From Minisyncoccota bacterium (lineage in GTDB: Bacteria > Patescibacteriota > Minisyncoccia > Phycocordibacterales > UBA9973): a stretch of 50,343 nucleotides of DNA. Shown in pieces: positions 14,605 through 16,312 of this stretch. The stretch lies in assembly GCA_041665885.1 (NCBI GenBank), contig JBAYHY010000004.1, positions 1 to 50,343 of the forward strand, in the 5' to 3' direction. The position numbers were made by a program, and so were the translations under genes. The number at the start of each line of letters is the position of its first letter. The first letter of the stretch is position 1. A model generated the notes under the pieces. That model saw nothing but the letters and a program-made list of their open reading frames with translations, searched no databases and was not told the origin of the DNA.

Positions 14605-14859
14605 CTAGATAAGGTAATTTGCTAATTGTTTTTTAAGATATCTCCTTCCCGAACCGCTTTTCAGAAATCTTTCCCTGCCTTCAGCATCTTTTTTGTTTAT
14701 ATATCCTTCGCAGTAAATTACTTTCCAAGTTTTATCACCCGTGGTCGTTTGACAACCGTGACCAGACAAATGCTCTTTCAATCTTTTCTTTAAATCAGAA
14801 GTATAGCCAATATACCAACTTTTATCTTTTTGATTTTCCAAAAGATATGTCCAAAACAT
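14605..14859 (-). CDS. Small GIY-YIG nuclease
   Basis: TYLL...WYIGYTSDLKKRLKEH...DAEGRERFLKSGSGR. Confidence 0.9.
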   Translation of the reverse strand: MFWTYLLENQKDKSWYIGYTSDLKKRLKEHLSGHGCQTTTGDKTWKVIYCEGYINKKDAEGRERFLKSGSGRRYLKKQLANYLI

Positions 14860-14877: not shown

Positions 14878-15010
14878 GTCGCGTAAAAGCTAAAGCTCAC
14901 GCGACGCGCGTAAACAAAAAAAACACCATATGGTGTTTTTTTTGTCACACAGCTTCATCCCTTTTGGGGCGAAGCCGCGTGGCAAATGTTAAGCATTTGC
15001 TTTACGCGGC
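14878..15010. repeat. Four stacked hairpins between tRNA-Asp and the GIY-YIG gene
   Basis: gtcgcgt/acgcgac (14878-14905), perfect 30-bp palindrome (14915-14944), gcttc...gaagc (14952-14975), gccgcgt/acgcggc (14974-15010). Confidence 0.8.
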
Positions 15011-15083
15011 GCGACCGAGCGGATTTGAACCGCCAACCTCCCGCGTGACAGGCGGGTGCTCTAACCAGTTGAGCTACGATCGC
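15010..15083 (-). tRNA. trnD: tRNA-Asp(GTC)
   Basis: GCGATCG/CGGTCGC acceptor, CCCGC-CTGTCAC-GCGGG anticodon arm. Confidence 0.96.
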
Positions 15084-15130: not shown

Positions 15131-15203
15131 TGTCGGCGGCAGGGAGTGCGCCTGCGACCCCGGGCTTATGAGTCCCGTGCTCTACTAACTGAGCTACGCC
15201 GAC
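15131..15203 (-). tRNA. trnM: tRNA with CAT anticodon (probably elongator Met) with non-canonical D and T loops
   Basis: Fully paired GTCGGCG/CGCCGAC acceptor, CTCATAA loop; T loop CGCACTC, D loop AGTTAGTA. Confidence 0.85.
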
Positions 15204-15245: not shown

Positions 15246-15923
15246 TTAGGTGTTTGATATGTGGTCTATCGCCCCAAGAATCTTGTTTCTAACACACGTG
15301 CCCTTTCTTACTTTCACCCTTAAAATACCTTTGTATTTCCCCATGTCTTTTAAAGAAGCCTTTTTGAGATTTGTTTTTATATAAGTAGTTTTTGAAAATT
15401 GTTCTTTTTTGATATTTAGGAAGTTTATCCAAAACAATTTTATGTTACTTTCTTCCCTCCTGAAAAATTCATTCAAGGTGAGCCGAAAAATCAAAACATC
15501 CTTTTCTATCCTCCACAACTTTAACCATTTAAAGTAAAAACGCATCATGTATGGGTTGCTATTTGTGAAACCGAACTCGCCGTTTTCGTATTTATATCCT
15601 TCTCCCCAATACAAACCAAGGCCAATCATCAAAATATCTCTACTTGACAATTCTCCCACGGCTGTTGCTCCCTCTCGTTTTTGCAAAATATTTCTTGAGA
15701 TCCTCTCTCTTCGCTTCAACTCCGAGTACTTTAAAAGTCCTCTGACAGATTTAATTTTTCCTTTCGTTTTTATTTTTTTTATTGCGGCCCCCGAGAGAAG
15801 GACATCTTTGCACCAAAAACTAAGCGTTGATTTGGCAATGTTTAGTTTTTTGGATATGTCACCCAGGCTTTCGCCGTTTTTCCTCATTTTTATCGTCGTC
15901 TCTTTTATGTGTGGATAGTACAT
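15246..15923 (-). CDS. N-terminal HTH plus LAGLIDADG-like domain protein, free-standing
   Basis: GESLGDISKKLNIAKSTLSFW HTH; GLGLYWGEG.K...FTNSNP motif. Confidence 0.7.
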   Translation of the reverse strand: MYYPHIKETTIKMRKNGESLGDISKKLNIAKSTLSFWCKDVLLSGAAIKKIKTKGKIKSVRGLLKYSELKRRERISRNILQKREGATAVGELSSRDILMIGLGLYWGEGYKYENGEFGFTNSNPYMMRFYFKWLKLWRIEKDVLIFRLTLNEFFRREESNIKLFWINFLNIKKEQFSKTTYIKTNLKKASLKDMGKYKGILRVKVRKGTCVRNKILGAIDHISNT

Positions 15924-15998: not shown

Positions 15999-16307
15999 AG
16001 CGGGGTAGAGAAGAGGCATCTCGTAAGGCTCAGCGGTAAATATGGGCCCCCTCTTGGGAAACCTGGAGGTGTGCACTCGTCAAATTCGGAGAAATCCTCC
16101 CTGCCGATTGGCAGAAAGACAATTCCGAGCTAAATTCTCTGAATGATATCAGAGATAAATGTGTAGAGACTAGATGACGGGCTCCTTAATCTATAATTAA
16201 TTTTTTAGAAAGGAGATGGTATAGTCCAGACCACAAACAGAATGGTAGTGAAAACTATAGTGGTAAAGCATAACCTTAAGACCCACGTTCGATTCGTGGC
16301 CCCGCAA
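15999..16307 (+). tRNA. trnfM: Initiator tRNA-fMet(CAT) split by an intron (exons 15999-16030 and 16269-16307)
   Basis: Spliced 71-nt cloverleaf: A1:A72 mismatch, A11:U24, TAAGG-CTCATAA-CCTTA, CCACG-TTCGATT-CGTGG. Confidence 0.92.
16031..16268 (+). ncRNA. Group I self-splicing intron (IC3-like), 238 nt, no ORF
   Basis: 5' exon ends in U33, intron ends in G; IGS UAUG-GGCC (16041-16048) pairs with both exons; P3 CTCGTCA/TGACGGG, P7 GACTA/TAGTC, P4 TTCGGA/TCCGAG. Confidence 0.92.
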
Positions 16308-16312
16308 CAATT

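What the first reader, a model, noticed from the sequence alone, without database searches (positions are those of the whole stretch)
15999..16307. Initiator tRNA gene hidden by a 238-nt group I intron at U33/C34
All splicing determinants are visible: U33.G wobble in P1 (exon GGCU with GGCC 16045-16048), P10 (UAUG 16041-16044 with exon CAUA), P3, P4, P7 and terminal G16268. The site matches the known cyanobacterial tRNA-fMet intron position, and tRNA group I introns have been reported in Patescibacteria, so the class is known, but standard annotation would miss this essential tRNA. The spliced tRNA has only two of the three initiator G-C anticodon-stem pairs (A29-U41).
Basis: partly seen in the sequence, partly recalled or inferred. 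Interest (0 to 1): 0.72.

Follow-up and report, generated by a model that had tools for sequence, protein, structure and literature searches.

The report
Self-splicing intron in initiator tRNA gene
The only initiator (start-of-translation) tRNA gene of this tiny-genome Patescibacteria bacterium is split by a 238-base self-splicing group I intron of an already catalogued type, so it is a real and correctly read feature but an ordinary one.

Summary
Rfam's group I model hits window 16021-16248 at 70.6 bits (cut-off 50). ARAGORN with intron search calls tRNA(CAU) 15999-16308 with a 238-nt intron at 16031-16268 (aggct|intron|cataa). Four species of the same genus carry an uninterrupted gene 100% identical to the predicted spliced tRNA, which proves the junction.

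Nineteen homologous split genes support P1-P10 and the cloverleaf: 93.7% of cells paired against 36-43% when partners are slid, and 44 pairs changed on both sides.

The tRNA is the initiator. It has an A1xA72 mismatch, A11:U24 and G30-C40/G31-C39. Fmt is present and TilS absent, and a separate elongator tRNA-Met and a tRNA-Ile(UAU) exist. No second initiator gene exists in the 97%-complete genome. A29:U41 is a lineage-wide, known natural variant.

The site (U33/C34, U-1, omegaG) is the classical cyanobacterial 'fMet.2Ug' IC3 type (Williams 2020). The same element sits in initiator tRNA genes of more than 12 phyla, often carrying an I-Ssp6803I-type endonuclease gene. The window's copy has no ORF.

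It is a new member of a known kind. The neighbouring 225-aa gene co-occurs with the intron, but I could not show it to be a nuclease.

The parts
15999..16030 (+). 5' exon of tRNA-fMet (positions 1-33; ends with U33)
   Evidence: ARAGORN with intron search. Identical to the 5' half of uninterrupted genes in G004, G022, G039 and G060.
16031..16268 (+). Group I intron, 238 nt, no ORF, type fMet.2Ug (IC3)
   Evidence: Rfam RF00028 70.6 bits. Boundaries from ARAGORN with intron search and from empty sites. 63.5% identical to the seed Tpc1.fMet.2Ug.
16269..16307 (+). 3' exon of tRNA-fMet (C34 to discriminator A73; CCA not encoded)
16027..16030 (+). P1 exon strand GGCU (G30 G31 C32 U33); U16030 is the -1 uridine
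   Evidence: Pairs with 16045-16048. The U.G pair is invariant in 19/19 homologues.
16041..16048 (+). Internal guide sequence UAUG|GGCC: 16045-16048 forms P1 and 16041-16044 forms P10
   Evidence: The AUG/CAU part of P10 is kept in 17/19 homologues.
16050..16069 (+). P2 hairpin with GAAA loop (16058-16061)
   Evidence: All 8 pairs show changes on both sides.
16076..16082 (+). P3 5' strand CUCGUCA (pairs with 16175-16181)
   Evidence: 4 of 7 pairs are compensatory and 97% of cells are paired.
16086..16128 (+). P4 (16086-16091/16123-16128), P5 (16095-16096/16118-16119), P5a (16101-16105/16110-16114)
16129..16162 (+). P6 (16129-16130/16161-16162) and P6a (16136-16142/16149-16155)
   Evidence: All 7 P6a pairs are compensatory.
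16166..16172 (+). P7 5' strand G-(A bulge)-GACUA; pairs with UAGUCC 16222-16227. Inferred guanosine-binding helix.
   Evidence: Invariant in 19/19 homologues. Same 'A-AAAAA' pattern as the published consensus structure.
16175..16181 (+). P3 3' strand UGACGGG
16182..16215 (+). P8 (16182-16187/16210-16215) with an AU-rich distal part
16222..16227 (+). P7 3' strand UAGUCC
16230..16264 (+). P9 three-way junction: ACCAC/GUGGU (16230-16234/16260-16264) enclosing P9b UAGU-GAAA-ACUA (16246-16257)
   Evidence: Same layout as the Williams seed sequences.
16268..16268 (+). Terminal guanosine (omegaG)
   Evidence: Invariant in 19/19 homologues, and in about 75 further split initiator genes from other phyla.
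15131..15203 (-). Elongator tRNA-Met(CAU), the only other CAU tRNA in the genome
   Evidence: Rfam 54 bits. G1:C72 and C11:G24.
15246..15923 (-). 225-aa HTH protein gene, divergent from the tRNA and 75 nt from it. Linked to the intron in congeners; function unproven.

Best explanation
Window 15999-16307 is the single initiator tRNA (tRNA-fMet, anticodon CAU) gene of a roughly 0.64-Mb Patescibacteria genome of the Nomurabacteria type. It is interrupted between U33 and C34 by a 238-nt, ORF-less group I intron of subgroup IC3, the catalogued 'fMet.2Ug' type.

Inferred mechanism, from the established chemistry of group I introns:
1. The precursor folds so that the guide sequence 16041-16048 pairs with the exon end GGCU (P1, with U33.G16045).
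2. A free guanosine bound at the P7 helix (G16168-C16226, next to bulged A16167) attacks the 5' splice site.
3. The guide's UAUG then aligns the 3' exon CAUA (P10), and omegaG16268 replaces the free guanosine.
4. The exons are ligated into a 7-nt anticodon loop CUCAUAA.
5. RNase P, 3' trimming, CCA addition, MetRS and Fmt then make fMet-tRNA.

Because no other initiator gene exists, all translation initiation depends on this splicing.

The guide sequence reads the most conserved stretch of bacterial initiator tRNAs (GGCU|CAUA). This explains why the same intron family occupies this site in many phyla. Within this genus the intron is present in about a quarter of species. Its sequence divergence mostly follows host divergence, which fits long residence with repeated precise loss.

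Shown here: boundaries, structure conservation, initiator identity and uniqueness of the gene. Inferred: catalysis and in vivo splicing.
For: - Group I identity: Rfam RF00028 70.6 bits, E = 5e-16. It is the only such hit in the genome.
- Boundaries: ARAGORN with intron search gives identical boundaries.
- Empty sites: uninterrupted genes 100% identical over 72/72 nt to exon1+exon2 in G004, G022, G039 and G060.
- Structure: across 19 split homologues in at least 7 families, 86 pairs are 93.7% paired against 36-43% when slid. 44 pairs have changes on both sides, and 0 of 500 shuffles reach the observed values. P7, U-1.G and omegaG are invariant.
- Fold: the unconstrained MFE recovers P1, P2, P3, P4, P5, P5a, P6a, P8, P9 and P9b, with z = -3.1.
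- Initiator identity: A1xA72; position 1 is A, C or U against an invariant A72; A11:U24 in 19/19. Fmt present at 220 bits; TilS absent. tRNA-Ile(UAU) and an elongator tRNA-Met are encoded.
- Uniqueness: no other CAU tRNA or initiator-like loop in the 97%-complete assembly. BLAST found no intact second copy in the split-gene congeners (G031 gave no BLAST match at all and was identified by Rfam and ARAGORN).
- Type: Williams 2020 lists fMet.2Ug as classical and IC3. The published consensus structure matches my helices. The nearest seeds are fMet.2Ug and Met.2Ug at about 63%.
- Breadth: 119 or more loci with omegaG directly before C34, in more than 12 phyla. 10 of 12 sampled loci pass the Rfam cut-off.
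Against: - There is no RNA-level evidence.
- P1 has only four exon pairs, and it borrows G30 and G31 from the anticodon stem. Folding may therefore need help from the tRNA body or a protein.
- The assembly is a 16-contig draft that lacks tRNA-Ala and tRNA-Asn, so a second initiator gene in unassembled DNA cannot be strictly excluded.
Confidence: 0.93

Rival explanations
1. The intron cannot splice on its own in the cell. It depends on a protein cofactor, for example the product of the neighbouring 225-aa gene acting as a maturase, or a host RNA chaperone.
For: P1 is short, and it competes with the anticodon stem for G30 and G31. Close orthologues of the neighbouring ORF occur only beside split genes: 7 of 14 split against 0 of 39 intact congeners.
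Against: Intron-bearing congeners G031, G033 and G041 have no such adjacent gene, and in G055 it is decayed. Own knowledge, not tested here: the classical IC3 tRNA introns of this architecture are reported to self-splice in vitro. The ORF has no recognisable maturase or LAGLIDADG fold.
Confidence: 0.08
2. The split gene is a dead copy, and a functional uninterrupted tRNA-fMet lies in the unassembled 3% of the genome.
For: The assembly has 16 contigs and lacks tRNA-Ala and tRNA-Asn.
Against: The ribozyme helices are kept by compensatory changes across 19 species, and the core is invariant. The exons are identical to functional intact genes. Other congeners, including G007 (100% complete, 6 contigs), have only the split gene.
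Confidence: 0.02
3. The interrupted tRNA(CAU) is not the initiator. It is an elongator tRNA-Met or a tRNA-Ile2.
For: Only two of the three canonical G-C pairs are present (A29:U41). Williams' catalogue also has 'Met.2Ug' and 'Ile2.2Ug' classes with the same P1 sequence.
Against: The tRNA has a 1x72 mismatch and A11:U24. TilS is absent and tRNA-Ile(UAU) is present. A separate elongator with G1:C72 and C11:G24 lies at 15131-15203. The au/GC/GC pattern is a documented natural initiator variant.
Confidence: 0.02
4. This is an add-on to the main explanation, not an alternative. The ORF-less intron and the divergent 225-aa HTH gene form a two-part mobile unit that spreads by collaborative homing. 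The protein would cut intron-less tRNA-fMet alleles, and repair would copy both the gene and the intron.
For: The gene lies 75 nt from the tRNA. Orthologues at 72-79% identity sit in the same position in G021, G028, G037, G045 and G052, with a decayed copy in G055, all beside split genes and none beside the 39 intact genes. ORF identity (72-79%) exceeds GatA identity (58-62%) in those genomes. Presence of the intron is patchy within the genus.
Against: No nuclease fold or family was detected: Foldseek against PDB and BFVD gave no hit better than E = 0.3, and Pfam and PDB profiles found only an HTH. Paralogues at 26-31% identity sit beside intact tRNA-fMet genes, and another sits beside tRNA-Gln. 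Intron divergence mostly tracks host divergence. The association may simply reflect shared ancestry.
Confidence: 0.12

Closest known systems
Classical cyanobacterial tRNA-fMet group I intron ('fMet.2Ug', subgroup IC3; Synechocystis PCC 6803 intron with I-Ssp6803I; Biniszkiewicz et al. 1994; Williams 2020)
   Same: Same host gene and same insertion site (U33/C34), with U-1.G, omegaG and the same helix plan. 63.5% identity to the seed Tpc1.fMet.2Ug, and 58% to a cyanobacterial copy, L137. It is the only initiator gene of the genome.
   Different: The host is a Patescibacteria genome. The window's copy has no endonuclease ORF (238 nt against 655 nt). The exons carry A29:U41 and A1xA72 instead of G29:C41 and C1xA72.
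Azoarcus pre-tRNA-Ile(CAU) intron ('Ile2.5Ug', IC3)
   Same: Compact IC3 architecture with GAAA loops on P2 and P9. Near-identical core strings: AAAUUCGGnGAAA, GUGUAGAGACUAGA and AUAGUCCAG.
   Different: Inserted at 36/37, not 33/34. It has a simple P9 hairpin instead of a three-way junction. 52% identity overall.
tRNA group I introns noted in CPR and metagenome-assembled genomes (Lui et al. 2021, PMC8172020; Williams 2020, 'unnamed phyla' at 0.49 per genome)
   Same: Same phenomenon: tRNAs that seem missing from CPR genomes because of group I introns.
   Different: Those reports give no locus-level analysis. This report adds the exact junction, the structure and the within-genus presence and absence.
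Collaborative homing of ORF-less introns with free-standing endonucleases (F-CphI with the psbA intron of cyanophage S-PM2).
   Same: An ORF-less intron has a linked, separately transcribed gene beside the interrupted gene, and the two co-occur across relatives.
   Different: The neighbouring protein is not shown to be a nuclease and matches no known fold. The setting is a chromosomal tRNA gene rather than a phage protein gene.

Membership tests
Group I intron (Rfam RF00028) | Covariance-model score at or above the curated gathering score | tested here: met
   70.6 bits against 50, E = 5e-16.
Group I intron (Rfam RF00028) | U at -1 forming a U.G wobble in P1 with an internal guide sequence; P10 with the 3' exon | tested here: met
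   U16030.G16045 is invariant in 19/19. P10 AUG/CAU holds in 17/19.
Group I intron (Rfam RF00028) | Terminal guanosine (omegaG) before the 3' splice site | tested here: met
   G16268 is invariant in 19/19. The junction is fixed by empty-site alleles.
Group I intron (Rfam RF00028) | Conserved core: P3-P7 pseudoknot, P4-P6 stack, P7 with bulged A (guanosine-binding site) | tested here: met
   P3, P4, P5 and P6a are supported by compensatory changes. P7 is invariant and therefore uninformative for covariation. The core matches the published consensus structure.
Group I intron (Rfam RF00028) | Guanosine-dependent self-splicing | not testable with these tools
fMet.2Ug tRNA intron type (IC3) | Insertion after the second anticodon-loop nucleotide (U33/C34) of an initiator tRNA, with U-1 and omegaG | tested here: met
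   aggct|intron|cataa. The definition is in Williams 2020.
fMet.2Ug tRNA intron type (IC3) | Sequence and architecture closest to catalogued members of the type | tested here: met
   63.5% to Tpc1.fMet.2Ug and 63.4% to Sba135.Met.2Ug, against 52-58% to other tRNA types and 43% to the tmRNA intron.
fMet.2Ug tRNA intron type (IC3) | Intron-encoded I-Ssp6803I-type homing endonuclease (present in some members, not a defining feature) | tested here: not met
   The window's intron is 238 nt with no ORF. Homologous long introns in other phyla carry the ORF (2OST, E = 1e-51).
Bacterial initiator tRNA | Unpaired or weak 1:72 position | tested here: met
   A1xA72. Across homologues, A, C or U stands opposite an invariant A72.
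Bacterial initiator tRNA | A11:U24 in the D stem | tested here: met
   19/19 (columns 11/23).
Bacterial initiator tRNA | Three consecutive G-C pairs 29-31:39-41 | tested here: not met
   The pattern is A29:U41, G30:C40, G31:C39, invariant in the lineage. au/GC/GC is a documented natural variant in alpha-proteobacteria and some mycoplasmas, so this does not exclude membership.
Bacterial initiator tRNA | Genomic context: Fmt present, separate elongator tRNA-Met, no need for tRNA-Ile2 | tested here: met
   Fmt 220 bits. TilS absent. tRNA-Ile(UAU) and an elongator tRNA-Met are encoded.
LAGLIDADG homing endonuclease (neighbouring ORF 15246-15923) | Match to a LAGLIDADG family profile or to the alpha-beta-beta-alpha-beta-beta-alpha fold | tested here: not met
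   Pfam at E <= 10 finds only weak HTH matches. A PDB profile search finds only an HTH. The AF2 model has pLDDT 85. Foldseek against PDB and BFVD gives no LAGLIDADG hit, best E = 0.36. The model has beta-alpha-beta units, not beta hairpins.
LAGLIDADG homing endonuclease (neighbouring ORF 15246-15923) | LAGLIDADG-like motif with an acidic residue at a helix end | tested here: inconclusive
   GLGLYWGEGYK is invariant in 47 homologues. This is motif resemblance only.
Collaborative homing pair | A free-standing gene adjacent to an ORF-less intron, co-occurring across genomes | tested here: met
   7 of 14 split against 0 of 39 intact congeners for the close orthologue. Hypergeometric p is about 2e-5 by my own arithmetic, not corrected for phylogeny.
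Collaborative homing pair | The protein cleaves the intron-less allele at or near the insertion site | not testable with these tools
   Needs a biochemical assay.

The most novel reading that the evidence does not exclude
The ORF-less intron is not an immobile relic. On this reading it travels with the divergently transcribed 225-aa HTH gene at 15246-15923. That gene belongs to a family of over 500 unannotated proteins that sit beside tRNA genes in Nomurabacteria and Paceibacteria. The protein's C-terminal domain matches no known nuclease fold. If it cuts intron-less tRNA-fMet alleles, this would be collaborative homing on an essential chromosomal tRNA gene, driven by a new type of homing endonuclease.
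Probability: 0.12. Interest if true: 0.65.

Novelty: new member of a known kind. Interest (0 to 1): 0.27.

Why it matters
- Annotation: initiator tRNA genes that look 'missing' from CPR/Patescibacteria genomes can be present but split. Completeness checks and tRNA inventories should search for group I introns. Default ARAGORN misses this gene, and the tRNAscan-SE 2.0 paper says that program is not designed for such introns.
- Biology: in a roughly 0.64-Mb genome, all translation initiation depends on a ribozyme reaction that needs guanosine. This mirrors the known situation in Synechocystis.
- Distribution: the census shows that the fMet.2Ug intron family occupies the same site in more than 12 phyla. 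Within one genus it is present in about a quarter of species. That makes these genomes a good natural series for studying intron gain and loss.
- None of this changes the current understanding of group I introns.

Tried and rejected
- ARAGORN in default mode finds no CAU tRNA in the genome. Only intron mode and Rfam find them.
- ARAGORN's second 'intron tRNA' (C3:60197-60596, called tRNA-Arg with a 317-nt intron) is the tmRNA, so I rejected it.
No RNA-seq test of the spliced junction was possible.
- The original papers (Biniszkiewicz 1994, Paquin 1997) are not held. I established the insertion site from Williams 2020 and from my own genome scan instead.
- The LAGLIDADG reading of the neighbouring ORF got no support from Pfam, PHROGs, PDB sequence or profile searches, the AF2 model with Foldseek against PDB and BFVD, or the C10 paralogue.
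- A purely horizontal origin of the window's intron is not favoured. Intron identity tracks GatA identity for most congeners.
- blastn for tRNA-Asn and tRNA-Ala in G000 found nothing. They probably lie in unassembled DNA.
The absence of named Synechocystis or Gloeobacter records from it means nothing.

Full report
**1. Observation**

Rfam's group I intron model matches 16021-16248 on the + strand at 70.6 bits (gathering score 50, E = 5e-16). It is the only such match in the whole 643-kb, 16-contig, 97%-complete assembly.

ARAGORN in default mode sees no tRNA here, and no CAU tRNA anywhere in the genome. With intron search it calls tRNA-Met(cat) at 15999-16308 with a 238-nt intron, 'aggct-intron-cataa'.

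ARAGORN's other 'intron tRNA', on contig C3, is the tmRNA.

**2. The junction is proven by empty sites**

I searched 100 relatives by BLAST with the predicted 72-nt spliced tRNA. Four congeners (G004, G022, G039, G060) carry an uninterrupted gene identical at 72/72 positions. About 35 further congeners carry intact genes at 75-97% identity. The flanks differ, but the gene reads ...AAGGCT|CATAACC... without the intron.

In the genus of 61 genomes:
- 14 have the split gene and no intact copy.
- 39 have an intact gene.
- 8 are undetermined.

Five of 40 other families of the order also have a split gene.

**3. Structure**

I aligned nineteen split genes and wrote the whole structure on the alignment:
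- the tRNA stems
- P1, P2, P3, P4, P5, P5a, P6, P6a, P8, P9 and P9b
- P7 and P10 as pseudoknots

The counts are:
- 86 pairs, with 93.7% of cells paired, against 36-43% when the 3' partners are slid by 1-3 columns.
- 44 pairs with changes on both sides.
- 0 of 500 shuffles reach any observed measure.

P2, P3, P5, P5a, P6a, P9b and the tRNA T, anticodon and acceptor stems all covary. U-1.G, P7 (with its bulged A) and omegaG never vary.

An unconstrained fold of the window's own sequence recovers P1, P2, P3, P4, P5, P5a, P6a, P8, P9 and P9b, with z = -3.1.

The guide sequence 5'-UAUG|GGCC-3' (16041-16048) is contiguous. It pairs with CAUA of the 3' exon (P10) and with GGCU of the 5' exon (P1). 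These are the most conserved nucleotides of bacterial initiator tRNAs.

**4. Identity of the tRNA**

The spliced tRNA has the initiator marks:
- A1 opposite A72. Among homologues, position 1 is A, C or U, always opposite A72.
- A11:U24 in 19/19 homologues.
- G30:C40 and G31:C39.

A29:U41 replaces the first G-C pair in every member of the lineage, in intact genes as well. This au/GC/GC pattern is a documented natural variant in alpha-proteobacteria and some mycoplasmas (PMC5389676).

The genomic context agrees:
- Fmt is encoded (220 bits, above the cut-off) and TilS is not.
- tRNA-Ile(UAU) is present.
- The only other CAU tRNA, at 15131-15203 on the minus strand, has elongator marks G1:C72 and C11:G24.
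- No other initiator-like anticodon arm exists in the assembly.

The split gene is therefore the sole initiator tRNA gene.

**5. What is known**

[quoted passage not shown] The paper names four classical types: Leu.3Ug, Arg.5Ug, fMet.2Ug and Ile2.5Ug, all of subgroup IC3. With its numbering (CUU/.../AAAA = Leu.3Ug), fMet.2Ug means CU/...g/CAUAA, which is U33/C34.

The published consensus structure has the same helices as mine, including the 'A-AAAAA' P7 and a P9 that encloses an inner hairpin.

The window's intron compares with the seeds as follows:
- 63.5% to Tpc1.fMet.2Ug and 63.4% to Sba135.Met.2Ug
- 52-58% to the other tRNA intron types
- 43% to the tmRNA intron

The same paper reports 0.49 interrupted tRNA genes per genome in metagenomic assemblies of unnamed phyla. 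Lui et al. 2021 mention CPR tRNAs with group I introns. The tRNAscan-SE 2.0 paper attributes 36 'missing' fMet or Ile2 genes to such introns.

**6. Breadth**

I scanned all GTDB species genomes for a G directly before C34 of an initiator-type 3' half. An intact gene cannot give this signature. They come from:
- Nitrospirota, Acidobacteriota, Omnitrophota and Planctomycetota
- Proteobacteria, Methylomirabilota, Elusimicrobiota and Chloroflexota
- Cyanobacteria (L137) and Melainabacteria (L151)
- many CPR groups

About 80 of these loci are called as split tRNA(CAU) genes, and about 75 of those read ...GGCT|C...G|CATAACC, with introns of 205-790 nt. Ten of 12 sampled loci pass the Rfam cut-off.

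About 25 introns of 626-677 nt carry a sense ORF of 147-178 aa. One example matches I-Ssp6803I at E = 1e-51 (PDB 2OST). The 2OST identification is my own knowledge; the tool's title for the entry is 'Putative endonuclease'. This ties the family to the characterised Synechocystis intron (655 nt, 150-aa ORF).

Locus L110 is the same contig as congener G007:C1 and is labelled 'Candidatus Nomurabacteria bacterium', which places the genus.

**7. History within the genus**

Intron identity to the window mostly follows GatA identity:
- 92% and 91% in the two nearest genomes (GatA 85% and 80%)
- 68-77% in most far-group genomes (GatA 58-62%), with G046, G052 and G059 higher at 80-86%
- about 60% in other families (GatA 55-57%)

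Intact alleles are interspersed at all distances. This fits long residence with repeated precise loss. G052, G046 and G059 are somewhat more similar than expected, so occasional transfer is possible.

**8. The neighbour**

The 225-aa ORF at 15246-15923 on the minus strand lies 75 nt from the tRNA and is divergent from it.

Its distribution is striking:
- Close orthologues (72-79% identity) occur only in this position beside split genes, in G021, G028, G037, G045 and G052, with a decayed copy in G055.
- None occurs beside the 39 intact genes.
- Paralogues at 26-39% identity lie beside both split and intact tRNA-fMet genes.
- G000's second copy lies beside tRNA-Gln.

The family has over 500 members, all annotated as hypothetical and with no Pfam domain.

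I could not show that it is a nuclease:
- Pfam, PHROGs and PDB sequence or profile searches find only a weak N-terminal HTH.
- A confident model (pLDDT 85) has no fold match better than E = 0.36 in PDB or BFVD.
- The model lacks the LAGLIDADG beta-hairpin topology.

The collaborative-homing idea therefore stays a low-probability lead.

**9. Verdict**

The observation and the interpretation are both right. The element is a new host-lineage member of a catalogued, classical intron type.

Noticed in passing
window 15131-15203 (-): The elongator tRNA-Met(CAU) has an unusual elbow: T-loop CGCACUC instead of TTCRANY, and D-loop AGUUAGUA without G18-G19. All stems pair. ARAGORN misses it, and Rfam scores it at 54 bits.
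   Followed up: partly
window 15246-15923 (-): A 225-aa HTH protein with the invariant motif GLGLYWGEGYK and a C-terminal domain that matches no known fold. Close orthologues are found only beside intron-split tRNA-fMet genes (7 of 14 against 0 of 39 congeners). The family has over 500 unannotated members. A second copy, G000:C10:21421-22053, lies beside tRNA-Gln(UUG).
   Followed up: partly
window 14605-14859 (-): An 84-aa stand-alone GIY-YIG domain gene (Pfam E = 2e-16) about 150 nt from tRNA-Asp (15008-15083). The tRNA neighbourhoods of this genome collect small nuclease-type genes.
   Followed up: no
G000:C3:60197-60596: ARAGORN in intron mode calls a 'tRNA-Arg(tct) with 317-nt intron' here. 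It is the tmRNA gene (ARAGORN -m; tag peptide AGAQYYRDRVIECPGNTRNKGTRLKNIWLA as predicted).
   Followed up: yes
G000 whole assembly; L019, L027: The assembly has no tRNA-Asn and no tRNA-Ala (ARAGORN, Rfam, blastn). In congeners, tRNA-Asn(GUU) carries a group I intron and sits beside tRNA-Ala(UGC). In G000 the pair probably lies in unassembled DNA.
   Followed up: partly
L003, L029, L045, L047 (Thr-UGU); L021, L050 (Asp-GUC); L005, L008, L011, L019, L022, L027 (Asn-GUU): Other tRNA genes of this order are also split by group I introns. 59 of 101 relatives have at least one Rfam group I hit, and several have 3-6.
   Followed up: partly
G019:C3:38343-38366, G044:C23:4002-4024, G056:C1:58812-58835, G059:C15:1421-1451: Short duplicates of the first 23-31 nt of tRNA-fMet lie just upstream of intact genes in G019, G044 and G056. 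In G059 and G044 the duplicate lies next to a paralogue of the 225-aa ORF. These may be footprints of insertions beside the tRNA gene.
   Followed up: no
L167 (JAMPXW010000002.1, 267,744 nt, labelled Burkholderiales): The contig carries a CPR-type split tRNA-fMet (70% intron identity to the window) and a 73%-identical homologue of the 225-aa ORF (P0104). The taxonomic label of this MAG looks doubtful.
   Followed up: no
L066, L074, L085 (Acidobacteriota): These split initiator genes have ambiguous boundaries because CAUAACC is repeated at both intron ends (GGGCTCAT|AACC...GCAT|AACCC). ARAGORN places the intron after U36, while an omegaG reading places it at 33/34.
   Followed up: no
L051, L059, L065, L079, L099, L100, L102, L104, L109, L116, L125, L134 and others: Introns of 626-677 nt at the same site in Acidobacteriota, Nitrospirota, Omnitrophota, Planctomycetota, Gammaproteobacteria, Vulcanimicrobiota and CPR carry intact I-Ssp6803I-type ORFs of 147-178 aa. 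L055, L086 and L108 instead have a 152-200-aa ORF on the opposite strand.
   Followed up: partly
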